A stretch of 64,000 nucleotides of DNA, taken from NCBI RefSeq assembly GCF_036971445.1, contig NC_091476.1, forward strand, positions 101,246,001 through 101,310,000, read 5' to 3'. Both the position numbers and the translations under genes were made by a program. This document shows, piece after piece, positions 30,151 to 63,778 of the stretch. The notes beneath the pieces were generated by a model that had not been told where the DNA came from, searched no databases, and saw nothing but the letters and a program-made list of their open reading frames with translations. Every line of letters begins with the position of its first letter. Position 1 is the stretch's first letter. The DNA is from Narcine bancroftii (Eukaryota).

Positions 30151-30320
30151 TCATGGAAATCAAACCTCAGTAACTCAGAATCAGAATTTATTGTTATGAA
30201 CAAGTCATGAAATTCAGTGTGAAACTATAGTGCCCTCCATAATATTTGGGACAAAGACGCATTTTCTTCCTTTATTTGGCCCTGTGCTCCACAGTTTTAA
30301 AATTGTATTCAAATTATTCA

Positions 30321-31330
30321 CCAATTCTCTTCTTTTAGTTATATCTTCCTTCATTGCTAATTCTTTTTCTATATTTACTATTTCCCTTTCCAACTACTCT
30401 GTTTCCTGGTTATAGTCCTTCTTCATCTTGGTTACATAACTTATTATTTGCCCTCTAATGAATGCTTTCATTGCATCCCATAGTATAAACTTATCTTCCA
30501 CTGATTCCGTATTTATTTCAAAATACATTTTTATTTGTTTTTCAATAAATTCTCTAAAATCCTGCCTTTTAAGTAACATGGGGTTTAATCTCCATCTATA
30601 CATTCTTGGAGGGATGTCTTCTAACTTTACTGTCAATATTAAGGGTGAATGGTCCGATAGTATTCTAGCTTTATATTCTGTTTTTCTTACTCTATCTTGC
30701 ATACGAGCTGATAACAAAAATAGGTCTATTCTTGAGTATGTTTTATGTCTAGCCGAGTAATATGAATATTCCTTTTCCTTTGGGTGTTGTTTCCTCCATA
30801 TATCCAAAAGTTGCATTTCTTCCATCGATTTAATTATAAATTTGGATACTTTGTTCTTTGTTAATTTTTTTCCCAGTTTTGTCCATATTTGAATCCAAAT
30901 TCAGGTTGAAGTCCCCTCCTATTAATATGTTCCCTTGCGTATCTGCTACCTTCAAAAAGATATCTTGCATAAACTTTTGATCTTCTTCGTTAGGTGAATA
31001 TAGATTGAGTAGATTCCAAAACTCCGAATATATCTGACATTTTATCATTACATATCTCCCTGCTGGATCTATTATTTCCTCTTCTATTTTAAATGGCACA
31101 TTTTTACTAATTAATATAGCTACTCCTCTTGCTTTTGAATTATACGATGCTGCTGTTACGTGTCCTACCCAATCTCTCTTTAATTTCTTGTGCTCCAATT
31201 CAGTTAAATGTGTTTCTTGCACAAATGCTATATCAATTTTTTCTTTTTTCAGTAAATTTAGCAGTTTCTTCCTTTTAATTTGGTTATGTATTCCATTAAT
31301 ATTTAAAGTCATATAGTTCAGCGTAGCCAT
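30321..31330 (-). pseudogene. L1 ORF2 N-terminus (APE endonuclease), frameshifted and truncated
   Basis: TLNINGI, QETH, GGDFN, YSRID, SDHSP motifs; frameshift near 30855, stop at 30394, sequence ends at the TSD. Confidence 0.9.
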
Positions 31331-32013
31331 TTTATACTTTGTTTATCTTCCCTTTCCGTTTCTCCATCATTACCTTTCCTTCTTATCCATTTCTGTTTTC
31401 TTGTTTTGAACCCTTTATAAGACAACATTCCTAAAACATCAAACATTTTCCTTATTCTCCTATTTAAAACTTCTTTAGCCCCAATCTCCCCTTCTCCTCC
31501 TGAGTTGTCCTTTATCCCTTGTCGGACAACCACATCTCCCCTCTCCATTTGGATTTGTGAATTCACTCGCAAGCATCAGCTGATTTTGCAGTGACCGCAA
31601 CTCCTCCCCACCCAGCCCCCCCAGAAAAGATTTCACTTTTCATATGTAACAAAGGTCACTCTTTTAGTTCCCTCCTTATTCCCTCTATTCCATTTCCTTC
31701 CCTTATTAATTCTTGTCTATACTATCTATATTTTCCTCTAAATACGGATACATTCATGTATGCACATTATACATATACACACATATACCTCTTTACCCAC
31801 ATACATATAAATCGTGGTCATTTTTACTCTTATTACATGTCTTCATCTCTCTGGTTGTTTTGTAGTTGTTCTGCATATTTCCTTGCTTCCTCTGGATCCG
31901 AGAATAGTTTTTTTTCTTCCCATAAGGTCGTTTTCGATGTATTGAACTCCTTTCTCTTCTTCAGGAGTTCAAAACTTATGTGTCTTTTTAGTTCTCAGTC
32001 TTTTGTCCTCTCG

Positions 32014-32976
32014 TTACACGTCTTCATCCCTCGGTCTATTTTGTAATTGTTCTGCAAATTTTCGTGCTTCCTCTGGATCCGAGAATAGTCTGTTTTGTTG
32101 TCCTGGAATAAATATTTTCAATACCGCTGGATGCTTTTGTATAAATTTATACCCTTTCTTCCATAAAATCGCCTTTGCTGTATTGAACTCCTTTCTCTTC
32201 TTCAGGAGTTCAAAACTTATATCTGGATAAATGAAGATTTTTTGCCCTTTGTACTCCAGTGGCTTGTTGCCCTCTCTTACTTTTTCCATTGTCTTCTCCA
32301 GTACCCTTTCTCTTGTAGTATATCTTAGGAATTTTACTAAAATAGATCTTGGCCTTTGTTGTGGTTGTGGTTTAAAGGCCAATGCTCTATGTGCCCTTTC
32401 TATTTCCATATCTTGCTGTAGTTCTGGACATCCTAGGATCCTGGGGATCCAATCTTTTATAAACTCTCTCATGTTCTTGCCTTCTTCATCTTCCTTAAGG
32501 CCCACTATCTTTATGTTATTTCTTCTGTTATAATTTTCCATTATATCTATTTTCTGAGCTAACAGTTCTTGTGTCTCTATAACTTTTTTATTAGATTCCT
32601 CTAATTTCTTTTTTAAGTCCTCTACCTCCATTTCTACTGCTGCTTCCCGCTCTTCCATCTTGTCCATTTTCTTTCCCATTTCTGTTAAGGTCATATCTAT
32701 TTTATTCATTTTCTCTTCTGTATTGTTTATTCTTCTTCTTAAATCATTAAATTCTTGCACTTGCCATTCTTTAAATGACTCCATGTATTCTTTAATAAGA
32801 GAAAGTATATCCTTTATCTTGCCTTTCCCTTCTTCTTCTATTTCTCTGTACTCTTCCTCTTCCTCTTCTTCTTCCTCTGGGTTGGCCATCTGTTTTTCTT
32901 TGTTGCCCTTCTCTTCTTTCTTGTTTTCGTTGTCTTCTATGTTCTCCTCTTGCTGCAGGTGTTCTGCAGGTGTCAT
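32014..32976 (-). CDS. L1 ORF1p (coiled coil, RRM, CTD), uninterrupted 320 aa
   Basis: ENYNRRNNIKIVGLKE, IERAHR, PRSILVKFLRY and IFIYPDIS are diagnostic L1 ORF1p motifs. Confidence 0.9.
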   Translation of the reverse strand: MTPAEHLQQEENIEDNENKKEEKGNKEKQMANPEEEEEEEEEYREIEEEGKGKIKDILSLIKEYMESFKEWQVQEFNDLRRRINNTEEKMNKIDMTLTEMGKKMDKMEEREAAVEMEVEDLKKKLEESNKKVIETQELLAQKIDIMENYNRRNNIKIVGLKEDEEGKNMREFIKDWIPRILGCPELQQDMEIERAHRALAFKPQPQQRPRSILVKFLRYTTRERVLEKTMEKVREGNKPLEYKGQKIFIYPDISFELLKKRKEFNTAKAILWKKGYKFIQKHPAVLKIFIPGQQNRLFSDPEEARKFAEQLQNRPRDEDV

Positions 32977-33609
32977 TGCCGGCTGTGGAGATCGACTCCC
33001 CAGCTGGTCACCCCTCCCGTCGGTGTGTTTTTTTGCATGCGCGGTTGCGCACTTTTACTCGGCTCAGCGAGCCATTTTTGTAGTCCACTTTTTACCGACC
33101 TGAGGGAGCGGGTATCTCTCTCCACCGCGGGCCTCTTCGAGCAGGTAAGGCCTTCTCCTTCTTCTTCCGTTGTCTTCTCTTCCTCTCTTCTTACCGTTGA
33201 TTTCGATTTTTCTTTTTTCGTCGCCATCTTCTTTCCACCTTTATACTCACTTTTCTTTAATTTTTATTTTTGTGCCTTTGTATTTTCCTTTGTTTTTCCC
33301 GACTTTTCTGGAGAGGGCTGGAGTTCACCGTCCGGCCACTACTCCATGTGACTCCTCCAATTGTATTCAAATTATTCATGTGATTATAGTACACATTCCT
33401 GATTTTATTCAAGGGTATCTGTGTACATTTTGGTGTGGTGATGCTATCTACATTGACTTGAACAAGATCCCACATAGGAGCTTAGTTGAAAAAGGCTTTA
33501 GGTGCATCCTCAAACACTGGCTTGTTTCTGCCATATGTCTAAATTCAAATTTAAAAGCAAAATTAATTATTACCAATGCACTGCATTTGTCTACCTCACT
33601 TTCACACTT

Positions 33610-36222
33610 GGTCATAAAGTCATAGTGTTGTACAGCATGATAAAGGCCCTTCAGTACAACTCATTCATGCCAACCAAGATGGCATTCAGGATTGTCCCAT
33701 TTGCCTGCATTTGCTCCATATCCTTCAAAACCCTTTCTAATGATAAATCTGTCCAAATGCCTTTGAGTATTATAACTATAACTGCTTCCAAATTTTCCAG
33801 ATGCAAAATACCCAGTGAGTTTAAAATATTGCCCCCCAGGTCCCTTTTAAATCTCTTCACTCTCATTATAAACATATGCCCACTTATTCTAGAATTGTCT
33901 ATCATGGGAAAAAGACTGAACATTCACTTGACCCATAGCCCTTATGTTTATAAACCTCTGTAATAGCCTCCTATGCTATTGGGAATTGAAGACCAAGCCT
34001 ATCTAACCTCTTATAATTCAAGCCCAAATCCCAGCAGCATGCTGGAGAATCTTTTCTGCATCCTTTCCAACTTATTGATATTTTTTCTACAGTTGGGTTA
34101 CAAGAACTGCACACAGTACTTCAGCTATGGTCTCGCTAATACCTTGTACAACTGTATCATGAGGTCGCAACTTTTGTACTCAATACCCATCCCAATGAAG
34201 GCAAGTAAGCCAAAAGCCATCTTTACCACCTTGCCCACCTGAGTTGCCACTTTCATAGAATTATGCAAATGGTATTTCTGTACTTCAACAATCTCCAGGG
34301 CCCTGCCATTGGGACCTCTCCTGGGACAATCATGAAGAAAGCACACCACTGTGGCTATATTCCCTTAGACATCTGAAGAGATTTGGTATATCACCAAAGA
34401 CTGATGCAAATTTCTACAGGTATATCATAGAGAGCATTCTGACTGGTTGCATCACTGCCTGCTATAGAGGTGTCAATGCACAGGACAGGAACAGGCTACA
34501 GAGGCTTGTAAGCTCACCCAGTGCCATCATGGGCATTAGTCTTCACTCCATTGAGCACCTCTTTAAGAGGTGGTGTCACAAGAAATCAGCTTCTATCATC
34601 AAGGATCCTCACCACCCAGGTCTTGCTCCTTTCTCACTGCTACCATCAAGAAGAAGGTGGTACAGAAGCCTGAAGACACACACTCAATACAGTATTACAA
34701 AAACAGCTTCTTCCACTCCGCCACCAGATTTCTGGATGGCCAATGAATCTATGGACACCACCTGACTTTTTCTCTTTTCTTGAACATTTTTTAAAAAAAT
34801 GCTGTTCACTGAAGTGTAATTTATAGAAATTTTGCACCTTGTACGGCACAATACTGCTGCCTCAAAACAACAAATTTTGTGGCACATGTTCACATCAGTA
34901 AACCTTTTATTAAAGACCTACCCTGGTTTGACTTACCAAAGTGCAACACCTCACACTTGTCAGTGTGAAATTCTATTTGCCATTCCGTTCTCCACTTTCT
35001 CAACTGATCCCGGTCCTGTTCTAAACTTGGATATACTTTCTCACTGTCCACCACACCACCAATTTCCATGTCATCTGCAGATTTACTAATTGTCATAATT
35101 ATATTGCCAACCAAATTGGTAATATAGATAACAAATACCATTGGACGCTACAGTACACCACTGGTGCAGACCAATTAGTAAAACAATGCTCTACTACCTC
35201 CCTTTGACCCCTTCCACAAAGCCAGTTTTAAATCTAATTGTCCAGCTCACCTTGCACCCCATGTGATGTAATTTTGCACACTGACTTCCTTCGACAGCTC
35301 ATTTCATAAACTCAACACCCTCTGTTGACCCACTGGAACCTTTTAAATCTTTGCTCTCTCATTTTAAATACATCAACTAACTCTGGGAAAAAGACTGACT
35401 CTTCACTTTACTGACATATTTCTGGAGTCTCCCTTTCCGCCATTGATGTGATTTACCAGGATAATTGACTGAAGAGGGGACGCAAGATTGCTGAGGGGAC
35501 CTTCCACTCTGCATACAGCCTCTTTCAGCTTCTCCCATCGGGAAAGAGATACAGGAGTATCAGAGCCAGGATTACCAGGCTGAGAAACAGCTTCTTCCCA
35601 AGGGTAGGGAGAATGCTGAGTGACCAAAGGAGCTGCTCACACTAACCATCTGAGACTTTCATATCCACGAAGCAATATTTATTTTTTCATTTGTAATATG
35701 TATTGTTTTCTGTTCGTGTGTTATGCCTGGTGGTATGTCAGCATGTTTTGCACTGAGGATCAGAGAATGCTGTTTTATTGGGTTATACTTGTACAATCAG
35801 ATGACAATAAACTTGACTTGATTTTACTTGACTTGCATATGTCCCTGATGACTTGATATTCCTCTACACAGTCTCCCCTCAGCCTTCTATCCCCAAGAGA
35901 AAGAAAGTTGTAGCCTTTCCAGCTTTTCCTTGTAGCTCAAGCTATACAACATCCTTGTGAATTATTTTGACCCCTTTCCAGCTTAAAGACATTCTTCCTG
36001 TAGTTGGGTGACCAGACCTATGCACAATTCTTCTAATGCGGACTCATCAATGTCTTGTACAGCTGTAACATGACATCCCAACTCCTGCACTCAGTGCCCT
36101 GACTGATGAAGGAAATAATGGCAAACACATTCTTTGCCACCCTGTCTGCCTGTGTTGCCACCTTCAGGGAACCCCGTACCTATACCTCTCAATCTTTCTG
36201 CTCTACAATATTCTTCAAGGCC
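33610..36222. mobile_element. Mosaic of old CR1 (mostly minus) and Rex-type (plus) fragments
   Basis: CR1 motifs at about 33610-34310, 34890-35400 and 35840-36222; Rex-type 3' ends at about 34330-34880 and 35500-35820. Confidence 0.7.
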
Positions 36223-36519
36223 AAAGAGCAGGCCTTGGACCACCACCACCTAAAATGATAAGAAGATAAACATGATCAGATTTAATGTGTATAAGTAGAT
36301 GATAGGTCTTTTTTGTTTGTATTCCTTTTGTATAAAGTTATGGTTTTATTGTATTCTATATGTTCAATATTTATTGTTTTTGGAGGGGGTGGGAAGGGGG
36401 AAGGGAGGGATGGGGAAAAAAAAGAGAAAATGTCATTGTGAATATTTAAAGAGATGCATCTGTAAATATATTGATTGATATGGTTCATAGTGCGATGAAT
36501 AAAGAAATACAAAAAAAAA
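36223..36519 (+). mobile_element. Short 5'-truncated L1-type 3' UTR with poly(A)
   Basis: G-rich tract, AATAAA, A-tail; TSD ATTCTTCAAGGCC at 36210-36222 and 36521-36533. Confidence 0.75.
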
Positions 36520-36771
36520 CATTCTTCAAGGCCTCGTTCCTTTCCAATGTGATGGCTGGTACAAAAGTGTGCATGTTCTTTGTTGAACCCACCAGACAAT
36601 TTGACACTTCTTGCACCCATACAACAGTAAGCACAGAAATAAATATTACAGCTATTCTGTGCAAAATTACTGTAAAGCAAAATTGTTCCATTATTCCTTT
36701 TTTTTTTTCTTTTCTTTTTCTTTGGCTTGGCTTCGCGGACGAAGATTTATGGAGGGGGTAAAAAGTCCACG

Positions 36772-38484
36772 TCAGCTGCAGGCTCGTTTGTGGCTGACCA
36801 GTCCGATGCGGGACAGGCAGACACGATTGCAGCGGTTGCAAGGGAAAATTGGTTGGTTGGGGTTGGGTGTTGGGTTTTTCCTCCTTTGCCTTTTGTCAGT
36901 GAGGTGGGCTCTGCGGTCTTCTTCAAAGGAGGCTGCTGCCCGCCAAACTGTGAGGCGCCAAGATGCACGGTTTGAGGCTTTATCAGCCCACTGGCGGTGG
37001 TCAATGTGGCAGGCACCAAGAGATTTCTTTAGGCAGTCCTTGTACCTTTTCTTTGGTGCACCTCTGTCACGGTGGCCAGTGGAGAGCTCGCCATATAATA
37101 CGATCTTGGGAAGGCGATGGTCCTCCATTCTGGAGACGTGACCCATCCAGCGCAGCTGGATCTTCAGCAGCGTGGACTCGATGCTGTCGACCTCTGCCAT
37201 CTCGAGTACCTCGACGTTAGGGGTGTGAGCGCTCCAATGGATGTTGAGGATGGAGTGGAGACAACGCTGGTGGAAGCGTTCTAGGAGCCGTAGGTGGTGC
37301 CGGTAGAGGACCCATGATTCGGAGCCGAACAGGAGTGTGGGTATGACAACGGCTCTGTATACGCTTATCTTTGTGAGGTTTTTCAGTTGGTTGTTTTTCC
37401 AGACTCTTTTGTGTAGTCTTCCAAAGGCGCTATTTGCCTTGGCGAGTCTGTTGTCTATCTCATTGTCGATCCTTGCATCTGATGAAATGGTGCAGCCGAG
37501 ATAGGTAAACTGGTTGACCGTTTTGAGTTTTGTGTGCCCGATGGAGATGTGGGGGGGCTGGTAGTCATGGTGGGGAGCTGGCTGATGGAGGACCTCAGTT
37601 TTCTTCAGGCTGACTTCCAGGCCAAACATTTTGGCAGTTTCCGCAAAGCAGGACGTCAAGCGCTGAAGAGCTGGCTCTGAATGGGCAACTAAAGCGGCAT
37701 CATCTGCAAAGAGTAGTTCACGGACAAGTTTCTCTTGTGTCTTGGTGTGAGCTTGCAGGCGCCTCAGATTGAAGAGACTGCCATCCGTGCGGTACCGGAT
37801 GTAAACAGCGTCTTCATTGTTGGGGTCTTTCATGGCTTGGTTCAGCATCATGCTGAAGAAGATTGAAAAGAGGGTTGGTGCGAGAACACAGCCTTGCTTC
37901 ACGCCATTGTTAATGGAGAAGGGTTCAGAGAGCTCATTGCTGTATCTGACCCGACCTTGTTGGTTTTCGTGCAGTTGGATAATCATGTTGAGGAACTTTG
38001 GGGGACATCCGATGCGCTCTAGTATTTGCCAAAGCCCTTTCCTGCTCACGGTGTCGAAGGCTTTGGTGAGGTCAACAAAGGTGATGTAGAGTCCTTTGTT
38101 TTGTTCTCTACACTTTTCTTGGAGCTGTCTGAGGGCAAAGACCATGTCAGTGGTTCCTCTGTTAGCGCGAAAGCCGCACTGTGATTCTGGGAGAATATTC
38201 TCAGCGACACTAGGTATTATTCTATTTAGTAGAATCCTAGCGAAGATTTTGCCTGCAATGGAGAGCAACGTGATTCCCCTGTAGTTTGAGCAGTCTGATT
38301 TCTCGCCTTTGTTTTTGTACAGGGTGATGATGGTGGCATCACGAAGATCCTGAGGCAGTTTACCTTGGTCCCAACAAAGCTTGAAAAACTCATGCAGTTT
38401 GGCATGCAGAGTTTTGCCGCCAGCCTTCCAGACTTCTGGGGGGATTCCATCCATACCTGCTGCTTTGCCACTTTTCAGCTGTTC
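36772..38484 (-). CDS. RTE reverse transcriptase half (570 codons, no stops, C-terminal Cys/His motif)
   Basis: NYRGITLLS, QCGFR, FVDLTKAFD, GVKQGCVLAP, LFADD, YLG, CNRCNRVC...HKRAC. Confidence 0.93.
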   Translation of the reverse strand, partial: EQLKSGKAAGMDGIPPEVWKAGGKTLHAKLHEFFKLCWDQGKLPQDLRDATIITLYKNKGEKSDCSNYRGITLLSIAGKIFARILLNRIIPSVAENILPESQCGFRANRGTTDMVFALRQLQEKCREQNKGLYITFVDLTKAFDTVSRKGLWQILERIGCPPKFLNMIIQLHENQQGRVRYSNELSEPFSINNGVKQGCVLAPTLFSIFFSMMLNQAMKDPNNEDAVYIRYRTDGSLFNLRRLQAHTKTQEKLVRELLFADDAALVAHSEPALQRLTSCFAETAKMFGLEVSLKKTEVLHQPAPHHDYQPPHISIGHTKLKTVNQFTYLGCTISSDARIDNEIDNRLAKANSAFGRLHKRVWKNNQLKNLTKISVYRAVVIPTLLFGSESWVLYRHHLRLLERFHQRCLHSILNIHWSAHTPNVEVLEMAEVDSIESTLLKIQLRWMGHVSRMEDHRLPKIVLYGELSTGHRDRGAPKKRYKDCLKKSLGACHIDHRQWADKASNRASWRLTVWRAAASFEEDRRAHLTDKRQRRKNPTPNPNQPIFPCNRCNRVCLSRIGLVSHKRACS

Positions 38485-38680
38485 CGATACGGGCAGGAGC
38501 AAGGGGGAGACGGCGGCCCCGGCCTCGGTCGAGTGAGGCAGACGGAGGCCCCGGTCCGGGCAGTATGGACCGACCTAGGAGGGGAGGCAGGCCCCTCCAG
38601 CCCGGGTAAGAAACCTGCATAGGAGAAGGCCACTCCGATATAAAACCTACGACCCAAGGACCTCGCTGCCACGTCCCAGC

Positions 38681-40453
38681 TTGCTTGGCCACGGCACACG
38701 AACCATGGGTGTAAAGGGTGGGGCCAGTACTGCGCGCACTGCACTCCACCTAAAAGCTCCTTTGCGCAGGCCCGAGGACAGGTCCACGTCCTCCCCCTCC
38801 ACGTCCTCCCCCTCCACGTCCTCCCCCTCCACGTCCTCCCCCTCCACGTCCTCCCCCTCCACGTCCTCCCCCTCCACGTCCTCCCCCTCCACGTCCTCCC
38901 CCTCCACGTCCTCCCCCTCAAAAGATGCTCACAAACTCAAGCTAGCATGCTGGAACATCAGAACCATGCTAGATAAGACTGACAGCCATCGACCTGAACG
39001 TCGGTCTGCCCTCATTGCACATGAACTCCTCAGACTTGACATCGACATAGCCGCTCTCAGTGAAGTCCGCCTGGCAGATGTAGGCAGCTTCCAAGAACGC
39101 GGCGCGGGCTACACACTCTACTGGTCTGGCAAGCCTTCGGATGAACGACGCCTATCTGGTGTAGGCTTCATGGTCAAGAGCTTCATTGCCTCCAAACTCG
39201 AAAACCTTCCGACAGGCCTCTCGGACCGAATCATGTCCATGCGACTCCCACTTCAAAACAAGCGTCACATCACCCTCATCAGTGTCTATGCTCCAACCCT
39301 CCAGGCGGAACCAGTAGAAAAGAACAAGTTCTACACCGACCTGCGCAACCTCATCCAACGTACCCCTACAGCCGACAAGGTTGTCATCCTGGGCGACTTC
39401 AACGCTCGTGTCGGCAAAGACTCAGAAACCTGGCCAGGAATCCTGGGCAAGCATGGCGTCGGCAAGTGCAACGACAATGGGCGCCTCCTGTTGGAGCTCT
39501 GCGCAGAACAGCGGCTTGTCATTACAAACACCCTTTTTCAGCAGAGGGACAGCCTTAAGACCACCTGGATGCATCCCCGATCCAAACACTGGCACCTCCT
39601 GGACTACATCCTGGTGCGAGAAAGTGACAAACAAGATGTGCTCCACACCAGGGTCATGCCTAGCGCGGAATGCCACACTGACCACCGGCTGGTTCGCTGC
39701 AAGCTCAACCTTCACTTCAAGCCAAAGCCCAGGAACAATAAAGCCCCCAGAAAGAGGTTCAATGTTGGAAAACTGCAGTCAGACGAAGCGAGAGGAAACT
39801 TCCAGGCAAACCTCAAAGCAAAGCTCGACGTTGCAACCCGCCTCACGGACCCGTCCCCTGAAACCCTCTGGGATCAGTTGAAGACTACCATACTGCAATC
39901 CACTGAAGAGGTACTGGGCTTCTCCTCCAGGAAAAACAAGGACTGGTTTGACGAAAACAGCCAGGAAATCCAGGAGCTGCTGGCAAAGAAGCGAGCTGCC
40001 CACCAGGCTCACCTTACAAAGCCGTCCTGTCCAGAGAAGAAACAAGCCTTCCGTCGCGCATGCAGCCATCTTCAGCGCAAACTCCGGGAGATCCAAAATG
40101 AGTGGTGGACTAACCTCGCCAAACGAACACAGCTCAGCGCGGACATTGGCGACTTCAGGGGTTTCTACGAGGCTCTAAAGGCTGTGTACGGCCCCTCACC
40201 CCAAGTCCAAAGCCCGCTGCGCAGCTCAGACGGCAAAGTCCTCCTCAGCGACAAGATCTCCATCCTCAACCGATGGTCAGAACACTTCCAATCTCTTTTC
40301 AGTACCAACCGCTCAGTCCAAGATTCCGCCCTGCTCCAGCTCCCTCAACAGCCCCTAAGGCTAGAGCTGGATGAGGTTCCCACCCTGGATGAGACATATA
40401 AGGCAATCCATTATTCCTACTGCAACATTAAAGAGTTAATTAGTTATAAATAA
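38681..40453 (+). CDS. RTE APE endonuclease half; last 14 codons come from flanking DNA
   Basis: WNIRT, LSEVR, VYAPT, LGDFNARVG, LDYI, TDHRLV motifs. RTE homology ends at YKAI (40408). First in-frame ATG is at 38705-38707 region (MGVKGG); the annotated start is a TTG. Confidence 0.9.
   Translation: MLGHGTRTMGVKGGASTARTALHLKAPLRRPEDRSTSSPSTSSPSTSSPSTSSPSTSSPSTSSPSTSSPSTSSPSTSSPSKDAHKLKLACWNIRTMLDKTDSHRPERRSALIAHELLRLDIDIAALSEVRLADVGSFQERGAGYTLYWSGKPSDERRLSGVGFMVKSFIASKLENLPTGLSDRIMSMRLPLQNKRHITLISVYAPTLQAEPVEKNKFYTDLRNLIQRTPTADKVVILGDFNARVGKDSETWPGILGKHGVGKCNDNGRLLLELCAEQRLVITNTLFQQRDSLKTTWMHPRSKHWHLLDYILVRESDKQDVLHTRVMPSAECHTDHRLVRCKLNLHFKPKPRNNKAPRKRFNVGKLQSDEARGNFQANLKAKLDVATRLTDPSPETLWDQLKTTILQSTEEVLGFSSRKNKDWFDENSQEIQELLAKKRAAHQAHLTKPSCPEKKQAFRRACSHLQRKLREIQNEWWTNLAKRTQLSADIGDFRGFYEALKAVYGPSPQVQSPLRSSDGKVLLSDKISILNRWSEHFQSLFSTNRSVQDSALLQLPQQPLRLELDEVPTLDETYKAIHYSYCNIKELISYK
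38783..38917 (+). repeat. Perfect 15-bp minisatellite x9 (TCCACGTCCTCCCCC) encoding (STSSP)9
   Basis: Read directly from the sequence; in frame just before the APE domain. Confidence 0.97.
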
Positions 40454-41517
40454 CTTGTAAACCACTGGCTTTTCTGTTTTATATAAATTGAAATTAGTGA
40501 ATGTATACAACCCAAGACAAATAAAAGTTGACTACTGACACATATTTCTTCTAAAACAATGATTGCTGATCATATTTTCAGCTGCAATAACTAGTTCATT
40601 GAAATATTTTAATAGTTGCACTGTGGTGCAATGAATTGTTCGTCTTTGTGTGATCAAGAATGTAGTTCACAGGACCAGTACATTGTAGATCAAGGTCAAC
40701 GCATCAGCCAACATGAATCTACTATAAAAATTTGTGCGCTGTCTTTCTTTATCACCCAGAATGTTTTAACAGAATGCCATGAAGGGACACAGGTTTAGGG
40801 TGGTGTTGTTACCATGGAAAATGGCCATTTATGGGAGAGAACGTACTTTTCAATGGCCAAAATGTTAAAGAAACAATTACACTGTGTTTTCTGGACCAGA
40901 TCTTCCCCAATATCAAAAGCATATTGCTATCTCATATACACTGGCTGAAAACTCAAACCATGCATTGCCAAGAGAAAACGGATTGTTCTTGCCTACAACT
41001 GGTACAGATTTAATTAGGAAAATTGCTCATTTTTTGCAACCATTCTTTGATTCTATAAAGAAAATCAAGACTTTTGAAAACAAATGATGTTGTTATGCCT
41101 TATTTTTTAAATTCCGCTTCAGAAAAATAGAGAAAGATGTGGAATGGAGACTACTGAGAGATTTGCAATTCTTTTCAACACCCTGCTGCATATCTGCAAT
41201 TCATATCAAGTTCTAAGCATATGAATAAAGGCCATGATAAGCTGCAACAGAAAGAAATGAATGTTTTTTGCTACTTCCCTCCAGCCATGGAATAGGATCA
41301 GGATACTTCCAGTAAATTCTATTATAAAGAAATTCTGAGCAAATCCAACATTTCCTAACAAAGTAACCTACAACAAAAAAATCAGTTGTACTGTTACGGT
41401 GTTATAATCTGTTACAGTGTGCTGACCGGCTGCACCCCTGAGTGGAAAGCTCTGCAAGAGGTGGTGAACACAACCCAGGACATCACAGGCAAAACCCTCC
41501 ACTCCACAGAACATCTG

Positions 41518-41852
41518 CAGTGGCTCTCAACCTTTTTTTTTCCACTCACATACCACTTTAAGTATTCCCTAGGGAATAGGGAGCTCTGTGATTAGTAAGG
41601 GATTGCTTGAGGTGGGATGTGGATGGAAAGAAAAAGTTCAAAAATCACTGTTTTAATTGACTCGCTCTATGTACGGTTTCATAACTCCAAAGGAAATGGG
41701 CCAATGACAATTTTTCTCAAGCAAAATATTTCAGTAACAATTGGGTCTAGAGCAGTGATTCTCATCCTTCCCTCACTAATCGCAGAGCACCCATGGCATA
41801 GGGATTACTTAAAGTGGTATGTGAGTGGAAAGAAAAAGGTTGAGAACCACTG
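41518..41852. mobile_element. hAT (Charlie-like) MITE inserted in a Rex-type fragment
   Basis: CAGTGGCTCTCAACCTTTTT ... AAAAAGGTTGAGAACCACTG with about 85-bp inverted arms. Right flank ATCTACAG, left flank a degenerate copy. The host Rex fragment (41400-42260) resumes after it. Confidence 0.85.
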
Positions 41853-43261: not shown

Positions 43262-43609
43262 CAGGGTCAGTGCCACAGCGAGTGTTAGAAGGGGGCATTA
43301 GCATGACCGGAATGGGCACAGTGTAACGCTTGTAAACCTACTCAACAGTAAGGGGGTGCAGGTAGATGCTGTTAACTATCTGCCGATTAATGTTATTGTC
43401 CCTCTGACGTAGCAGGCAAAAGCACTGCTTTTATGCTGGGAAAGTCATTAGTGCGCATCAAGCTAGACGCTAGTAACTCAAGACACACGCCAGTGACATG
43501 GGTGGGGGAGGTCTGATGGCGAGCAATGGCTACGTGTGTATGGGCACAGGACCTCACTTGGGCAGTCAAATCCTGTGAATTCCACCCCACCCCCCTCCAC
43601 TTAGGACTG
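43262..43609. mobile_element. Probable hAT non-autonomous element inside a Rex-type fragment (42950-43980, minus)
   Basis: CAG...CTG ends, 8-bp TSD TGACGGTA (43254-43261) / TGATGGTA (43610-43617). TIRs are otherwise degenerate. Confidence 0.6.
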
Positions 43610-45024: not shown

Positions 45025-45165
45025 GTGTACCTGGACAAAGGGCTCAGGTTGAAATGCTGGTTACCCTCTACTTCCTTTAGATGCTGTGTGACCTACTGAG
45101 TTTCTCCAGCACGTTTGTGTATTTCACCACACTCCCAACATGTGCAGACTTTCCAGCTTAACTCC
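45025..45165 (+). mobile_element. Penelope-like pseudo-LTR fragment
   Basis: CCTGGACAAAGGGCTCAGGTTGAAATGCTGG ... GATGCTG..TGACCT.CTGAGTTTCTCCAGCA, homologous to 49530-49660. Confidence 0.6.
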
Positions 45166-49600: not shown

Positions 49601-49660
49601 CTCAACCTGTTGAGTTTCCCCAGTAATGTGTTTTTATTTCAACCAGGTGTCTGCAGACTT
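46640..49660 (+). mobile_element. Penelope-like element, most of its length, decayed (RT plus GIY-YIG)
   Basis: KPADKG, FTMDVQSLYTSIPH, KGVAMGT, GVIYLIQCSLSGFLYIRETGQRL, LEEQCLIFCLGTLQ; pyrimidine-rich N-terminal region at 46800-47320. Confidence 0.85.
49533..49566 (+). ncRNA. Degenerate minimal hammerhead ribozyme motif in Penelope pseudo-LTR
   Basis: TTGATGA-AGTGCTCAAGCCT-GAAATGTT resembles the CUGAUGA-stem II-GAAAC core at the position expected for Penelope-like elements. Core and stem carry mutations. Confidence 0.5.
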
Positions 49661-50433: not shown

Positions 50434-51367
50434 TTCTCTTCTTCTTCTTTGGCTTGGCTTCGCGGACGAAGATTTATGAAGGGGTAATTGTCCACGTCAG
50501 CTGCAGGCTCGTTTGTGGCTGACAAGTCCGATTCGGGACAGGCAGACACGGTTGCAGCGGTTACAGGGGAAAATTGGTGGGTTGGGGATGGATGTTGGGA
50601 TTTTCCTCCTTTGTCTTTTGTCAGTGAGGTGGGCTCTGTGGTCTTCTTCCAAGGAGGTTGCTGCCCGCCGAACTGTGAGGTGCCAAGATGCACGGTTGGA
50701 GGCGATATCAGCCCACTGGCAGTGGTCAATGGGGCAGGCACCAAGAGATTTCTTTAGGCAGTCCTTGTACCTCTTCTTTGGTGCACCTCTGTCTCGGTGG
50801 CCAGTGGAGAGCTCGCCATATAACACGATCTTGGGAAGGCGATGGTCCTCCATTCTGGAGACGTGACCTACCCAGCGCAGTTGGATCTTCAGCAGCATGG
50901 ATTCGATGCTGTCAGCCTCTGCCATCTCGAGTACTTCAATGTTGGTGATGAAGTCGCTCCAATGAATGTTGAGGATGGAGCGGAGACAACGTTGGTGGAA
51001 GCGTTCTAGGAGCCGTAGGTGATGCCGGTAAAGGACCCATGATTCGGAGCCGAACAGGAGTGTGGGTATGACAACGGCTCTGTATACGCTAACCTTTGTG
51101 AGGTTTTTCAGTTGGTTGTTTTTCCAGACTCTTTTGTGTAGTCTTCCAAAGGTGCTATTTGCCTTGGAGAGTCTGTTGTCTATCTCGTTGTCGATCCTTG
51201 CATCCAATGAAATGGTGCAGCCGAGATAGGTAAACTGGTTGACCGTTTTGAGTTTTGTGTGCCCGATGGAGATGTGGTAGTCATGGTGGGGAGCTGGTGA
51301 TGGAGGACCTCAGTTTTCTTCAGACTGACTTCCAGGCCAAACATTTTGGCAGTTTCTGCAAAACAGG
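50434..51367 (-). mobile_element. 5'-truncated RTE, somewhat older copy or subfamily
   Basis: Homologous to 36720-37650 with more substitutions and small deletions; (GAA)n tail; no clear TSD. Confidence 0.92.
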
Positions 51368-53616: not shown

Positions 53617-53850
53617 TGTAGTGCACTATCAGAAACCACCAAGACTAGGCTGAGGAACGATAGGCTTTAATATACAGAAGAACCTTGCTGGCCCGGATCC
53701 AGGTATAGGAATGGAGGGAAGGGTGAGGTGGCTCGACCTTTATGGCCCAAGACCATGGGAAAGGAGTCATCAGTCATCAATGGATGGGCCAGTTCTATAT
53801 ATACAGTAGCCAACAATAACTATACACAATGGAGAAAACATATCACCACA
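53617..53850 (-). mobile_element. Short solo LTR (234 bp)
   Basis: TGTAGTG...CACCACA termini, 5-bp TSD CAGTG at 53612-53616 and 53851-53855, ATTAAA and TATA-like motifs on the minus strand. Confidence 0.8.
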
Positions 53851-56800: not shown

Positions 56801-58149
56801 ATCATAACAACAAAATATTCTGGTCCAGACACCTAGCAGGAGTTTATTCAGGAACAAGGGTTATTGTAACATAGCAAAACATAGGATAACAACTCAAGAA
56901 ATATTCTAAATGGCTAGTTTCTGAAACTTTACCCTAGCAAACCACTTAAATCCTACACCTGAATTTTTTTGCTGTTGATATTCTTGATTGGAAAAGAATG
57001 AATGTCATAAAATTTCTAAAAAGCATCGTAATTACAGGGAACAGGAAAATTCTTGCAAGTATGTATAATTTTCCACATATGCAAAATCAATAAAATCACC
57101 ATCAAAGGGAAAAGTAAAAGACAGGGAACATGACCTTGCCCAGGTAGATCTTTCTTAAACAATTTCATATAGTTCAGTTTTGTGAAAACCTGACAACCCA
57201 TATTGACAGGAGAAGGCCCTATCACTTTATATCTGTTAACATTAGTGGAATACTCCATTAATAATGCAGGTAAGATAGAAAAGAAGAATCACAACATGCT
57301 ATAAGAAAGCAAATTGAGGGAATCGCAAGAGGTGCAAGGTCACAGTAGGGTTAACATTACATCGAAGTAGAGGTGTGCTCGTGCATGACCAAGAACATCT
57401 ATGCATGGCCAAAAATTGACTTACCAGGTTTGGCTCTTCCAAAGCACGCTCAGGAGCTTTCTCAATGTGATGAGGAATTCTGCCTCCATCACCCTTTTGA
57501 GCAGAGCAATCCAAATATTTTTTTCAACTTCTGTCAATTTTAACAAATTTGCTTTCCAGTTGCTCTGAGAGATCAGTAAGTTTACCTGATCCAGATCTCA
57601 CATAATGTTATGCATCTCAATTAAATCTCCTGTCGGGCTCCTTGTTTTCCAAAGAAACAGTAAAGCCTGAGCATTCTCTCCTTACAATAAGTTTCCAGCA
57701 ACATCCTTGAAACCACCCCTGAGCCCCCTCTGGTGCTTGTTAAATTTTCAGGAGATACTGACGAGATGTAGAGTGCGAACTCACAGACTACAGGAGTCCT
57801 CACCAGTACTATTCAGAGGTAAAATAAAGTTCAACCCAGGAAAATATCCCAAGTAACAATTGCAGATAAATGGTAAACCACCTCTGACAGATTTACACAT
57901 GAAATTGGTTGCAAGTATTTGAGGAATTATTTTCTCATGCATTGGGTAATAATGAATAGAGACTGGCAGAATGTTCTCTTACCATTTTTGTGAGTGCTTT
58001 TTCCAATATTAATGAACATTTCTAAACTATTCTGTGCAGTGCATGTGATTTTTGCTTGCCAATTATTTTCATAAATGTATAAACGATATCTCAACAGAAT
58101 TTCTAATAGGCTGGATTTTTCTAGTCAGCATCAAAGAGATGACATTTGC

Positions 58150-58970
58150 TTTGAGCCGAGGGTAGGGTGAAGGTGACAACAGGTTATAGAGTGATAAGCA
58201 GGGACATAAAAGTTAACTAACCAGTGGTGAAATCTGATAAGGAGGAAGGTGAACATGAAGGGGGGAAGGGCAGATGGAACCTCATGGAGAAGGGGAGAGG
58301 GAGTCTGATGGGTGAAATATGTGGGCAGAGGTGGATGGAACTAGGAGGACGACAAAAATGGATGATTGGGGGGGTGGGGGAAAGTGTGCAGGTGGAAAGG
58401 ATGTTTGTGGTAAAGGGAACACAACTGAAAGGACCAGAGGTGGATGCATACTTTCTACAGATCATAGTTGGAGCCATGGGTGCTCACTACAGTGAGGCCA
58501 AATGCAAACTAGAAGAACAACACTTTAATTTCCATGTGAGTAGTCCACTATGGACACTGAGTTTGCCAATGTCAGGTAACCTTCACTTTCTATGTTCCCT
58601 CTCTCCCTCTGATCCACCTCTGGTCCTCCCAGTCTTGTTTCCTGTCCCATATCTCCCCTCCATCCTGCAGCATCCATATTTGTTCCTCTCACCCTATTCT
58701 TTAACCTTCTACCCACATGATTCACGTACAAGATCCTCTCTCCCATCTGGTCCCATCCGCCCCTCATGTCTCCCTTGTGGTTCCCATTATCACCTCTCTA
58801 ATGTATCAGATCTCAGCACTTGTAGCATTTGTGCCTCTGCTTATCAAACTAGAACTCTATATTCACCTTTATCACACCATTTCCCCATCTGGCTTGATCT
58901 GCCCCTTTTTATCCTTGTCTGTTCATCCTATCACCTACCTGCCTCAGTTTCTCAACCTCCCTCCTCCCCA
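58150..58970. mobile_element. Penelope-like 3' fragments in both orientations
   Basis: EAKCKLEEQHFNF motif at about 58490-58535 followed by pyrimidine-rich sequence; purine-rich mirror segment upstream. Confidence 0.5.
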
Positions 58971-59041
58971 TCCAGAGAGACAGCACTACAGGGGCAACTG
59001 ACCAGCAAGTTCAGCCATCTCACTGATGAGTAGAAGACCCT

Positions 59042-59214
59042 AGAGTGTAGAGTGCTCTGAGGAGATGGAGTACCTTTGGTGCTGATAGCTGCACCTCATT
59101 AAGGTGGGGATGATAGGCATCACTGGACCTCACTCATCTCCTAAATCTCTCACTTGTTGGCTCCTCGTGCCACACCCTGGAAACTGTTTCAGTTAGCGGG
59201 AGAAAACAAGTGAG
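59042..59214 (+). ncRNA. HDV-like self-cleaving ribozyme fold at the 5' end of the RTE derivative
   Basis: P1 AGAGTGT(59042-48)/ACACCCT(59172-78); P2 CTCACTTGTT(59149-58)/AACAAGTGAG(59205-14); P3 GGC/GCC around L3 TCCTCGT; P1.1 GG(59179-80); P4 AACTG-TTT-CAGTT; J4/2 AGCGGGAGAA. Confidence 0.75.
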
Positions 59215-60137
59215 GGGGTGGTGTCATTACTACACCACTAGGTGATCATCCCAACGGTGGAACAGGTGGAAGAGGAGACATCTCCCAACGGCTGCAAAGG
59301 CGGATGAGGATACCCAATAATGGATGGGGAGGCTTGTGAGCATGCCGCAAGAACTGCCGTGGACCCACAACACTCAGGGCTTGTCTAGCTAGTGTGTGAA
59401 GCCTGGATTCAGCGGACTGTGCAGAAAAAACCATCACTGGTTCAACGGGCAGAAAGGTGATTCTCAGCGATGCATTGTGGAGCGCTAAGAGGGCACAGTG
59501 AGACACATACAGAACACTACTGGCCATCCACTGCATCGTGACCTGTCTCCAGCCATCTTGACTATGTCTTGCCACTGGGTCCAGATAGGCTGGGGCGAGA
59601 GAGTGAGGCTGACGACCTGTTCAACTCTCCCTCACTTTAAATCCAAATCAAATGCAAGTCAATGAAACCCAATACACAACACCTAAAGTCCTGCGGTGAT
59701 GGGGAGTGGCGAAACAATAGGTACAAATACACTGGAAGCTGTAGATACAAACCTGCACAAAGACGGCTCAGGGAATAGGGTCACTCTCTACTGGACAGAA
59801 GCAGCAGTTGCGTTTGGCTGCCCCCTGGGTGTCTGAGCAGCCCTCTTTAGGATCGCTCTGCTCACCTCCATGGAAGAATGGGCTGCAAAAGGTGCTTCAA
59901 ACATAGACTGCTTCAGCTGAAGTCAGGCACATCATCGAGGTGCAACTAAAGTGTGCTATGTGCAAGACCCGAGCAGCATCCACTGCCACGACAGCACCCA
60001 CCCACTTGTGTCCCAAATGTGGGCAAGCCTTCAGGCCCCAGATTGGGCTCACCAGTCACCTCCGGACCACAGCCATTTGACTTTAAAGCCATGGTCATCT
60101 TCAACTATGAAGGATGAACAAGAAGAAGAACAACAAC
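59043..60137 (+). mobile_element. Internally deleted (bipartite) RTE derivative: about 870 bp of 5' region joined to about 225 bp of 3' end
   Basis: 3' part encodes HLCPKCGQAFRPQIGLTSHLRT, then CTTCAACTATGAAG hairpin and (AAG/AAC)n tail. Putative TSD AGAAGACCCTA (59032-59042) / AGAAGACACTA (60138-60148). No EN or RT. Confidence 0.75.
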
Positions 60138-61617
60138 AGAAGACACTAATGGCTATTTCAGCTGAAGTTTGCATCAAGCCAGTGTATTTTGGTTGAATGC
60201 TTATGAAAAGACTGCAGCAGTACAATCTGAGGAAGAAACATCTGGATTTCTGGCAGTAACATCTGGATTTCTGCATTTAACTGAACATTTGGGATGTGGG
60301 AGGTTGCAATCAGCAGTTCACTAATAACTGCCTCATTCTAACAACTGCAAATTGTTGATCAAAATATAATTGCTTGGTTCCTGTTAAAATTTTGTTCCTG
60401 TCGACAATTTGCAATGAATATCAGCATTAACACCTAGACATCGATGTTATTGAGAAGCATGAATGTGATCGTCATGTACATTATGTACTAAATAATTTCA
60501 GAAAGGTTAACCTCCAAGTAGTTTTCCCAAATCGCAAACACTTTCAAATAAGTTTTAATCACCAGTATAATGCATTTGTCAATGTAATTTAGAGAGGAAA
60601 GATTTATTGGGATATAAATTGAATTCAGGCAAATGGGACTAGCTTAATGGGCATGAAGTTGGGCTGAATGGCCTGTTTCTGTGTAATCTTCTATGACTCC
60701 ATGACAAAATAAGTCATTTTTTTCCCATTTATTTTCTCAAACCCAATTCCAGCATTTTCACTCAAGATGACTCAATGCCATGACTTCTCGAACTCTCCTG
60801 TTCTGGTTGGTATAAATGAGAGAGAAATGGAAAACAGAAGATGCAGAGATTTAAAGGAAGGACACTACAAATTCAAAAGAATATGACCCAGGAACTAATA
60901 AAAAGACTGGGCTACTGCCCTTGTAAAAAGAAAGTTGAGGGCTAACCTACCAAAGGCCTTTAAAATTGTGACATGTCGCTGAGGCAGAGGGAATATTTCT
61001 AGATAGCTAGAAAACATCAATTTAAGAGAGTCAACAGGTTCTTTCTTCAATGTTTTGGCTTTATCTGAGATTTCCATCTCCTATTTTGGGGGAAGGCTTA
61101 ACAGGTTTAAGATATATAATTACCTTGGAAAACTGGCAATTATGTGTTAAGTATCAATCCTTCCATTTAATCTGAATAAAGTATGTTGAACAACGCAAAA
61201 TGGATATTGAATCACTGGTAACAAATGCTCATGAAACAGCACGCTCCACTTCATGATCACTCATGTGTTTTGTATAAATGTCAGAAGCCTTGAATCATGG
61301 GCATGGTAAGACAACAAACACTTCGAATGCACTATCATGCTTTATGACACTGTAAACCACTGCATTTTGTTCTTATTTAGTCCTGAAGAGCTCAGGATTG
61401 CCTGCACAGTTTAAATAAAAAGTGTCACTTAATTAATTTCACGTGAAGTAATTAATTCTGGGATATTGGTCTCCTTTATAAATGCAGGTGAGGGGAATGG
61501 ATTGCAGTCTTGGAAAAGACTGTCTATCTTGCATCCAGCCCTGAGTGGGTGAAGGAAGTGGTTTGGGTTGGTAGGTGGGCCTTACATGATCAGATGAGTT
61601 TCTCCCACACTTTAGTG

Positions 61618-61717
61618 TCTTTGGCTTGGCTTCGCGGACGAAGATTTATGGAGGGGGTAAAAGTCCACGTCAGCTGCAGGCTCGTTTGTGGCTGACAAGT
61701 CCGATGCGGGATAGGCA
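61618..61717 (-). mobile_element. 100-bp RTE 3' end with 17-bp TSD
   Basis: TCTCCCACACTTTAGTG at 61601-61617 and 61718-61734. Confidence 0.93.
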
Positions 61718-61959
61718 TCTCCCACACTTTAGTGGATAACAAATGTAAAGGGCAGCACTCACCACTAGGGGAGATCTTGCTCAACCTTTTAAACAGCAGA
61801 TGAGAGACAGGTGTTCTTCCTGTTTATTCCTCATTAGATAAAGGAAGGGCAAAAAAAAGATGGAACAGATGTGCAGGATTCGTATTCAATAAAAAAAAGA
61901 TGCTTCACTTGTATGCTAATCTGCCTTAGGGAAATGCTAATTTATTTATGTCTCATTCT

Positions 61960-62937
61960 CTTCTCTTTGGCTTGGCTTCGCGGACGAAGATTTATGGAGG
62001 GGGTAAAAAGTCCACGTCAGCTGCAGGCTCGTTTGTGGCTGACCAGTCCGATGCGGGACAGGCAGACACGATTGCAGCGGTTGCAAGGGAAAATTGGTTG
62101 GTTGGGGTTGGGTGTTGGGTTTTTCCTCCTTTGCCTTTTGTCAGTGAGGTGGGCTCTGTGGTCTTCTTCAAAGGAGGCTGCTGCCCGCCAAACTGTGAGG
62201 CGCCAAGATGCACGGTTTGAGGCGTTATCAGCCCACTGGCGGTGGTCAATGTGGCAGGCACCAAGAGATTTCTTTAGGCAGTCCTTGTACCTTTTCTTTG
62301 GTGCACCTCTGTCACGGTGGCCAGTGGCGAGCTCGCCATATAATACGATCTTGGGAAGGCGATGGTCCTCCATTCTGGAGACGTGACCCATCCAGCGCAG
62401 CTGGATCTTCAGCAGCGTGGACTCGATGCTGTCGACCTCTGCCATCTCGAGTACCTCGACGTTAGGGGTGTGAGCGCTCCAATGGATGTTGAGGATGGAG
62501 CGGAGACAACGCTGGTGGAAGCGTTCTAGGAGCCGTAGGTGGTGCCGGTAGAGGACCCATGATTCGGAGCCGAACAGGAGTGTGGGTATGACAACGGCTC
62601 TGTATACGCTTATCTTTGTGAGGTTTTTCAGTTGGTTGTTTTTCCAGACTCTTTTGTGTAGTCTTCCAAAGGCGCTATTTGCCTTGGCGAGTCTGTTGTC
62701 TATCTCATTGTCGATCCTTGCATCTGATGAAATGGTGCAGCCGAGATAGGTAAACTTGTTGACCGTTTTGAGTTTTGTGTGCCCGATGGAGATGTGGGGG
62801 GGCTGGTAGTCATGGTGGGGAGCTGGCTGATGGAGGACCTCAGTTTTCTTCAGGCTGACTTCCAGGCCAAACATTTTGGCAGTTTCCGCAAAGCAGGACG
62901 TCAAGCGCTGAAGAGCTGGCTCTGAATGGGCAACTAA
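61960..62937 (-). mobile_element. Young 5'-truncated RTE with open reading frame and 11-bp TSD
   Basis: Nearly identical to 36720-37691. TSD TGTCTCATTCT at 61949-61959 and 62948-62958. Confidence 0.95.
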
Positions 62938-63778
62938 TGAGACATGGTGTCTCATTCTACTGCTTCATTAATGCACCATGCCTCAGAAATGAAAATTCAC
63001 CAAGTTACATGTCATATGAGCAGAGTTGTGATGCATTTCCCCTTCTTTCTCTCTCTTCCTTTCCACTTTTCCAACAAGTGAAGTTCTTTTTAGAGATACC
63101 ACCCAACAAGCTGCACCGCTCAAATACACTAATTAACCTACAAACACTGGATATCTTTGGAGGGTGGGAGGAAATCGGAGCACACAGACAAAACGTGCAA
63201 ACCTCTTACAGACTGCACTGGAGTCACACCTGGGTTGCAGGCACTGTAACAGTGTTGCGCTACCTACTACACTAATCGTGTCACCCTGTTGCATTGAATG
63301 TTCTCTGGCTTTCATTCCTTTTGACTGTGAAATAAGGACGTCCTGAGTTACAAAGCAATCATTGGGGCTGTTAAAGTGCAGTAAGGTGACTCCAAAGTCC
63401 CATTCCATGGGACAGAATCCCAACTCCAGGAAGTACTGAAATAGCAGGATTTAGTTAGATCCTTGGCCCCCATTTCCAGTGAACACAACCTAGCACAAGA
63501 TGTCTGAAGTGTGATTGTTTTACAGTGATAAAGTGGAACACATGGTGCTTTAAAAAAATGCAGGAGAGTAGTGAAAATTATTTTACAGATGGGACTTATT
63601 TTGAGAAGAACCCTTTGCCGTGATAAAAATATCTAAACAATTCTGTGAAGATGAAATGTTACAATGAAACCAATCTAGCGAGTCAGTAATGACTCCCAGG
63701 CCCATTGGAGTAAAACATGACTACAATTTTCAAAGGACAGGATTTAAATAATTTGAATAAAACAATCTAAATCATTAT

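What the first reader, a model, noticed from the sequence alone, without database searches (positions are those of the whole stretch)
30299..62958. Three non-canonical integration structures from two LINE clades in one intron
Seen: the inverted-only L1 (30321-33358), the twin-primed RTE (36699-40406) and the fold-back RTE junction (62936-62956) all involve unusual use of the second target end. Inference: second-strand priming or template switching may be common in this genome and may reflect host repair or local chromatin rather than one element's enzyme. This is my best candidate for an undescribed system, but three events in one window is a small sample.
Basis: inference. Interest (0 to 1): 0.7.

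Follow-up and report, generated by a model that had tools for sequence, protein, structure and literature searches.

The report
Front-flipped RTE jumping genes are common
Three odd-looking jumping-gene insertions in one intron of the IGSF9B gene are real but are separate accidents rather than a local system; the useful result is that the RTE-type family involved carries a flipped front end in about three of ten sampled long copies elsewhere in this genome, likely by the 'twin priming' copying route so far described mainly for mammalian L1.

Summary
All three structures are real and lie in one 94-kb IGSF9B intron. (1) RTE 36699-40408: textbook twin-priming anatomy (12-bp TSD, segments abut with no loss, microhomology at both joints); the empty site exists in a related species. 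(2) L1 30321-33358: 5'-complete, 3'-truncated, tailless, 20-bp TSD; internally primed; 'inverted-only' is favoured by target polarity but unproven. (3) RTE 61960-62937: ordinary 5' truncation with a 10-nt inverted copy of its own target. None is rare enough to need a local cause: 26 of 86 sampled long RTE copies (30%) and 4 of 72 copies of all lengths are inverted; tailless L1s with TSDs (3 of 69) and a second fold-back (1 of 56) occur elsewhere. Clustering evidence is weak. A pure host explanation is not supported: L1 is inverted less often (1 of 49 long copies), CR1 0 of 19, and an RTE relative from another source shows the same flip. Eight literature searches found no report of RTE twin priming, but three key papers were not held. 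This scan has already reported RTE inversions on other DNA of the same genome; the rates are the addition here.

The parts
8412..8558 (-). IGSF9B (turtle homolog B)-like exon, second half of the V-set domain; everything from 8559 to the window's end is one intron
30301..30320 (.). L1 TSD, left copy (20 bp); starts 2 nt downstream of a T4|A4 site at 30295-30302
30321..33358 (-). L1, 5'-complete, 3'-truncated after the EN domain, no tail; 5' UTR, ORF1 32014-33054, ORF2 from about 31330 with a frameshift near 30830-30900
33359..33378 (.). L1 TSD, right copy, joined directly to the L1 5' end with no poly(T)
36687..36698 (.). RTE TSD, tail side (12 bp)
36699..38484 (-). RTE non-inverted 3' part: A/G-rich tail, short 3' UTR, RT domain (reference 2877-4641)
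38484..40408 (+). RTE inverted 5' part: last 5' UTR monomer, 15-bp repeat tract, EN domain (reference 952-2876); 1-nt microhomology at the inversion joint, 2 nt with the TSD
40407..40418 (.). RTE TSD, 5' side (first 2 nt shared with the RTE)
50434..51367 (-). older 5'-truncated, non-inverted RTE copy (92.5% to reference), no TSD found
61618..61717 (-). 100-nt RTE 3' end with 17-bp TSD, blunt canonical junction
61949..61959 (.). third RTE TSD, tail side (11 bp)
61960..62937 (-). 5'-truncated RTE, about 980 nt, 99% to reference
62936..62956 (.). fold-back junction: 10 extra nt (62938-62947); 62936-62945 is the reverse complement of target 61948-61957, 2 nt of it shared with the RTE end
62948..62958 (.). 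third RTE TSD, 5' side

Best explanation
The three insertions are likely independent products of target-primed reverse transcription in a genome with very active LINEs, and the RTE family likely uses twin priming as a routine pathway. Shown: the anatomy and the rates. Inferred mechanism: the RTE endonuclease cuts the two strands 9-13 bp apart; the first 3' end primes at the tail; the second strand is cut early, and its 3' overhang pairs by 1-5 bases inside the same RNA just ahead of the first polymerase and copies towards the 5' end; the two cDNA ends are then joined by microhomology. The window's L1 is an internally primed copy (about 5-7 bases of target-RNA pairing just before an A-rich tract), more likely primed from the second nick with the first cDNA lost (about 60:40 over priming at an atypical first nick). 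The fold-back is a templated 5' extra: the truncated cDNA end likely paired by 2 bases with the single-stranded target overhang, copied 8 bases of it and was then joined. Overhang length, an element property, likely decides which clades can twin-prime.
For: RTE rates: 26 of 86 consecutive copies holding a mid-element 33-mer (4,595 genome matches) are inverted, 95% CI 22-41% (one copy, L068); 4 of 72 consecutive 3' ends (68,751 matches), 0 of 43 under 900 nt and 4 of 28 at 900 nt or more (71 de-duplicated); 7 of 40 5'UTR-bearing copies (2 rest on tandem-repeat alignments). Of 34 inverted copies: TSD 9-13 bp, median 11, in 30 (2 lacked the 3' end, 1 no TSD, 1 in a TA run); 24 of 30 two-part cases abut within 35 nt, median 6.5 nt lost (4 complex or UTR-repeat cases dropped); 5' microhomology in 23 of 30 and extra bases in 4 of 30, against extras in 33 of 59 non-inverted copies. 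PMC2912911 reports the same contrast for human L1. The inverted piece comes from RNA upstream of the break, which excludes cDNA snap-back (PMC11371274). L1 twin priming: L222/L255 (16-bp TSD), L246. CR1 0 of 19 junctions in view, in line with the short-overhang model of PMC4245944. RTE relative L395 from another source: inverted 225 nt, 9-bp TSD. Window L1: 13 of 15 tailed copies have TSDs starting with A in sense; the window TSD does so only in the opposite polarity (read by eye).
Against: The RTE rate samples come from the first 50 Mb of one contig and differ by stretch (5 of 30, 17 of 35, 4 of 21; scan p 0.03-0.04), so a regional effect is not excluded; 10 of the first 30 had their 5' end out of view. 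In 3'-anchored samples RTE and L1 do not differ (4 of 72 vs 2 of 30, p = 1); most long L1s are simply full length. The CR1 family is older (85-93% to the window copy), anchored near its 3' end, upper CI 17%. Only 1 of 79 outside RTE loci showed the geometry (short, collapsed contigs). Other tailless L1s (L171, L187, L371) do not clearly show reversed polarity; L171 ends on an A-rich tract with sense polarity. The RTE clade label rests on architecture, not on a tree with named RTEs (one search gave no clade names).
Confidence: 0.82

Rival explanations
1. Host state (repair factors, early unwinding of the target) makes second-end priming frequent for all LINEs in this species; the element's enzyme matters little.
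For: Both L1 and RTE show inversions here; extra 5' nucleotides are frequent (33 of 59) as for zebrafish ZfL2-2, where they are host dependent; PMC4245944 found L1 inversions in HeLa but not DT40 cells.
Against: Long L1 1 of 49 vs long RTE 26 of 86 (p = 3e-5; per junction in view 1 of 12 vs 26 of 63, p = 0.046); CR1 0 of 19; the same flip in an RTE from another source.
Confidence: 0.2
2. Local chromatin or sequence of this intron promotes non-canonical resolution (a hotspot).
For: Weak regional heterogeneity on C1 (scan p 0.032-0.037); an earlier AI note saw 3 of 4 inverted in one window (e1-9946022, untested).
Against: Only 1 of 6 RTE copies in the window is inverted, as expected from the genome rate; runs and adjacency tests p = 0.17 and 0.16; the three events are of three different kinds.
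Confidence: 0.07
3. The RTE inversion arose after insertion (recombination between short inverted repeats) or is an assembly error.
For: The internal inversion joint at 38484 was not among the contig pieces listed.
Against: One breakpoint coincides with the TSD in 30 copies; perfect TSDs; segments 98-100% identical to the family; short-read contigs carry the outer junction; a related species has the empty site.
Confidence: 0.03
4. For the L1 only: it is a plain tailless copy, primed internally at the first nick (or made from a shortened RNA), with nothing inverted.
For: No poly(T) or 3' L1 remnant at the right junction; three other tailless TSD-flanked L1s without clear reversed polarity; target-RNA pairing exists either way.
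Against: In the element's own sense the TSD begins with T, unlike 13 of 15 tailed copies; a T4|A4 site lies 2 nt from the TSD start in the opposite polarity; PMC2837659 describes twin-priming variants whose first strand copied only the tail.
Confidence: 0.4

Closest known systems
[quoted passage not shown]
   Same: One TSD around two opposed pieces of one RNA; pieces abut with small deletion or duplication; microhomology at the 5' and inversion joints; few extra nucleotides; about 30% of insertions in human and chimp L1 (PMC2912911 Table 2) versus 30% of long RTE copies here.
   Different: A single-ORF, ORF1-less element of another clade, TSD 9-13 bp rather than about 15, in a non-mammalian vertebrate; over all lengths the rate is about 6% (4 of 72).
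Tailless retrocopies / internal priming (PMC5322556) and poly(T)-headed L1 twin-priming variants (PMC2837659)
   Same: 3'-truncated, tailless, TSD-flanked copy with target-RNA complementarity next to an A-rich stretch.
   Different: The template is L1's own RNA, 3 kb long with a complete 5' end, and there is no poly(T) remnant; host is not a therian or lizard.
5' extra nucleotides of zebrafish ZfL2-2 (PMC4245944, PMC2666801), R2 snap-back junctions (PMC11371274), L1 templated insertions (10.1101/2024.08.27.596794)
   Same: Short extra DNA at the 5' junction copied from target DNA within about 15 bp of the site.
   Different: Only that it is an RTE copy and the copied piece is inverted; direct-repeat extras are commoner here (3 of 56 vs 1 of 56 other copies).

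Membership tests
Twin-primed (5'-inverted) LINE insertion | Single TSD flanks both opposed segments | tested here: met
   12 bp in the window; 9-13 bp in 30 of 34 inverted copies; empty site in another species
Twin-primed (5'-inverted) LINE insertion | Inverted segment derives from RNA upstream of the non-inverted segment and nearly abuts it | tested here: met
   0 nt in the window; within 35 nt in 24 of 30
Twin-primed (5'-inverted) LINE insertion | Microhomology between target end and internal RNA site | tested here: met
   2 nt in the window; 1 nt or more in 23 of 30 by alignment edge; no shuffled control run
Twin-primed (5'-inverted) LINE insertion | Both cDNAs made by the element's RT from one RNA during integration | not testable with these tools
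   needs a retrotransposition assay
RTE-clade LINE | Single ORF with APE-type endonuclease and RT, no ORF1, short 3' UTR with simple-repeat tail | tested here: met
   Pfam EN and RT; 1180-codon open frame in natural copy L059; homologues of 1030-1100 aa with the same domains; tail
RTE-clade LINE | TSD peak 10-12 bp | tested here: met
   median 11, peak 10-12; expected value from PMC4245944
RTE-clade LINE | RT groups with named RTE elements in a tree | not tested
   no named RTE sequence was returned; the label is recalled from architecture
L1-clade LINE | ORF1p and ORF2 EN homologous to human L1; poly(A) tail and 13-19 bp TSD in full-length copies | tested here: met
   ORF1 E 1.8e-11 to 2ykp; EN E 4e-23 to L1 EN; 6.1-kb tailed copies
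'Inverted-only' twin-primed L1 | Endonuclease motif in the polarity opposite to the element | tested here: inconclusive
   favoured by eye, offset by 2 nt; no scored test available
'Inverted-only' twin-primed L1 | Remnant of the first cDNA (poly(T) or L1 3' end) | tested here: not met
   L1 5' end joins the TSD directly at 33358/33359
Templated 5' extra nucleotides | Extra bases match DNA flanking the site | tested here: met
   10-nt inverted match to 61948-61957; the 10 extra bases have no full match in the RTE reference, one 9-nt partial match about 800 nt upstream

The most novel reading that the evidence does not exclude
Twin priming is not an L1-in-mammals quirk but the default side reaction of any LINE whose endonuclease leaves a stagger of about 9 bases or more. 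It needs no ORF1 chaperone, and in this RTE family it accounts for about 40% of long truncating insertions (26 of 63), more than in the co-resident L1, making it a main route by which the family inactivates its own copies and a natural model for second-strand cleavage timing.
Probability: 0.5. Interest if true: 0.62.

Novelty: new member of a known kind. Interest (0 to 1): 0.45.

Why it matters
How and when the second DNA strand is cut in LINE integration is an open question, and twin priming is its clearest genomic footprint. The study read here (PMC4245944) saw inversions almost only with human L1 in human cells and proposed that overhang length and host factors decide. A young single-ORF family with tens of thousands of copies, in the same genome as L1 and CR1 families with different staggers, lets that model be tested at scale and shows that ORF1p is not needed. 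It also matters for anyone using RTE-like enzymes for gene insertion. The three-in-one-intron coincidence itself carries little information.

Tried and rejected
Micro twin-priming origin of the third junction: the 10 extra bases have no full match in the RTE on either strand; a 9-nt match at reference 2857 lacks microhomology with the TSD; rejected in favour of the 10-nt target match. cDNA snap-back for the big inversion: rejected, the inverted part is not a duplicate of the 3' part. DNA search with a mid-RTE stretch found nothing because the words are too common. Pfam scans of 225 candidate frames in unique-looking DNA found one host exon only. L383 (nested half-L1), L384, L385 and L342 (L1/RTE nests) were not counted as inversions; L031, L041, L060, L069, L091 are collinear internal deletions. 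Outside RTE loci L424 and L444 carry an inverted piece from downstream and L451 a distant one: not counted. Run X5 gave no unique-flank cover; X6 gave no cover of the third site or a listed empty site for the L1. A scored comparison of L1 target polarity was not obtained, so that point rests on reading junctions by eye. A test of inversion rate in the 200 kb around the window was not obtained. The protein atlas gave no result.
Full report
Setting. The window is G000:C17:101246001-101310000 of a 3.33-Gb vertebrate genome; earlier AI notes call it a ray, which I did not test. One host exon lies at 8412-8558 on minus. It matches residues 92-143 of a protein named turtle homolog B, IGSF9B, and the preceding exon maps to C17:101348381-593.

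Structure 1, the RTE. Tail and RT half lie on minus (36699-38484), the 5' half with the endonuclease on plus (38484-40408), between 12-bp direct repeats. In uninverted full-length copies the base equivalent to 40408 is followed at once by that of 38484, so nothing is lost or duplicated; there are 2 nt of microhomology with the TSD and 1 nt at the inversion joint. The inverted part ends inside the family's tandem-repeat 5' UTR, so it is not shown to be full length. Short-read contigs of probably the source sample hold 40379-41300 without difference, and a contig from another species joins 36690 to 40435, the empty site.

How common is this? The family has 68,751 exact matches to a 3' 32-mer and 4,595 to a 33-mer 1.74 kb from the 3' end. 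Using natural copy L034 as reference I classified consecutive listed copies on contig C1. 3'-anchored: 4 of 72 inverted; 0 of 43 under 900 nt and 4 of 28 longer (71 after de-duplication). Mid-anchored: 26 of 86 (30%, CI 22-41%, with L068); one copy (L165 = L196) is in both samples, and 10 of the first 30 had the 5' end out of view. By my count from these outputs 37 of the 60 non-inverted copies are truncated in the ORF and 23 reach the UTR or are open, giving 26 of 63 junctions. Among 40 best hits to the 5' UTR on four contigs, 7 are inverted. For 34 inverted copies including the window's: TSD 9-13 bp in 30; segments within 35 nt in 24 of 30 two-part cases (4 dropped as complex or in UTR repeats); 5' microhomology in 23 of 30 and extra bases in 4 of 30. 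Non-inverted copies with a TSD of 8 bp or more (59 of 133 closed copies) show extras in 33, microhomology in 23, blunt joins in 3 (7 of the extras are in copies reaching the UTR and may be reference mismatch). These are the marks of twin priming given for human L1 in PMC2912911.

Structure 2, the L1. ORF1 and the endonuclease match human L1; tailed full-length copies are about 6.1 kb (7,090 matches to a 3' 28-mer). The window copy has the family's 5' end, stops after 3,038 nt and has a 20-bp TSD. The family sequence beyond the stop matches the target at 5-6 of 7 positions and is followed by an A-rich tract, so internal priming is likely. Whether the primer was the first or second nick cannot be read directly. 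I put it at about 60:40. Tailless TSD-flanked L1s recur: L171 and L187 (2 of 20) and L371 (1 of 49). True L1 inversions also occur: 2 of 30 within 1.5 kb of the 3' end (L255 has a 16-bp TSD), 1 of 49 mid-anchored (no TSD found; 25 had ends out of view), 0 of 20 EN-anchored.

Structure 3, the fold-back. A 980-nt truncated RTE with an 11-bp TSD carries 10 extra bases; 62936-62945 is the reverse complement of target 61948-61957, the stem is beyond shuffle expectation, and short-read contigs hold it. The simplest reading is that the cDNA end paired by two bases with the single-stranded target overhang and copied it before joining. One more fold-back (L303, AT-rich) and three direct-repeat extras of 10 nt or more occur among the 56 other copies. 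PMC4245944 reports that many 5' extras of ZfL2-2 come from flanking DNA, PMC11371274 describes snap-back onto nearby target DNA for R2, and 10.1101/2024.08.27.596794 describes templated insertions from within 15 bp of L1 sites.

Local system, host or enzyme? One of six RTE copies in the window is inverted; with three long copies at least one is expected 43-66% of the time. Along C1 the runs and adjacency tests give p = 0.17 and 0.16, scans of 10, 20 and 35 copies 0.22, 0.037 and 0.032 uncorrected: weak heterogeneity, no hotspot shown. Long RTE copies are inverted more often than long L1 copies (p = 3e-5; per junction p = 0.046), but 3'-anchored samples do not differ (p = 1). An older CR1 family shows 0 inversions in 19 junctions in view among 29 loci. 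One of 79 RTE relatives from metagenome contigs, L395, has twin-priming geometry with a 9-bp TSD. The pattern fits the proposal in PMC4245944 that an overhang of about 10 nt is needed and 5 nt is too short, i.e. an element property with possible host tuning.

Literature. Eight searches found no paper reporting twin priming in RTE-clade elements. Seen: PMC4245944 (passages, sections 3 and 16: inversions only with human L1 in human cells, bar one Nimb-2 insert); passages of PMC2912911, PMC6007223, PMC4476161, PMC5322556, PMC11371274, PMC2666801, PMC2837659, PMC3747384 and 10.1101/2024.08.27.596794; PMC5389967 only a reference hit. Ostertag and Kazazian 2001 was seen only as cited. Ichiyanagi and Okada 2008, Ichiyanagi 2007 and Kojima and Okada 2009 were not held; the first analysed vertebrate RTE junctions and could already report inversions. 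No supplements were read. This scan has noted RTE inversions at other places in the same genome.

Verdict. Observation confirmed; no undescribed local system. The lasting result is frequent twin priming by a single-ORF, non-L1 LINE in a non-mammalian vertebrate: a new member of a known kind, interest 0.45.

Noticed in passing
L224, L231, L232, L237, L238, L241, L243, L244, L245, L383, L181: An ORF1-only internally deleted L1 derivative (shared break, reference 2142 joined to 5726) makes up 9 of 30 L1 3' ends sampled: a half-L1-like non-autonomous family.
   Followed up: no
window:36775-38484; P0157, P0176: The RTE RT half is 76% identical to an amphioxus protein and 71% to a cyprinid protein, and the family is present in run X5 but nearly absent in X6: suggests horizontal transfer.
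   Followed up: no
window:38484-38563; L034:3253-4240: The RTE 5' UTR is a variable array of GC-rich monomers of about 105 and 170 nt, and the start of the ORF holds a 15-bp repeat (window 38783-38919) that expands to over 1 kb in L148, L281, L304, L306.
   Followed up: partly
L165 (G000:C1 about 4553000-4555200): Complex RTE insertion in one 11-bp TSD with a tail and 42-nt RTE 3' end at the second target end followed by an inverted internal piece: priming at the RNA 3' end from both nicks plus template switch.
   Followed up: partly
L063:4631-5597, L067:4596-4927: Twin-primed RTE copies with non-RTE DNA (about 225 and 47 nt) captured at the inversion joint.
   Followed up: no
L031, L041, L060, L069, L091, L052: RTE copies that join the 5' UTR region to the 3' end by large collinear internal deletions.
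   Followed up: no
window:7217-7411 (-): DDE_1 transposase fragment (Tigger/pogo-like), Pfam E 3e-7.
   Followed up: no
window:9970-12961 (+): Decayed CR1 element of a family with at least 4,873 candidates.
   Followed up: partly
window:48126-49421 and 19-1064: Decayed RT fragments that look Penelope-like (recalled; no Pfam hit).
   Followed up: no
window:18645-19060: About 415-nt imperfect palindrome (69% self-complementary), probably a MITE.
   Followed up: no
window:59907-60077 (+): Short frame with a weak C2H2 zinc-finger hit below the Pfam cut-off; may be an old LINE C-terminus.
   Followed up: no
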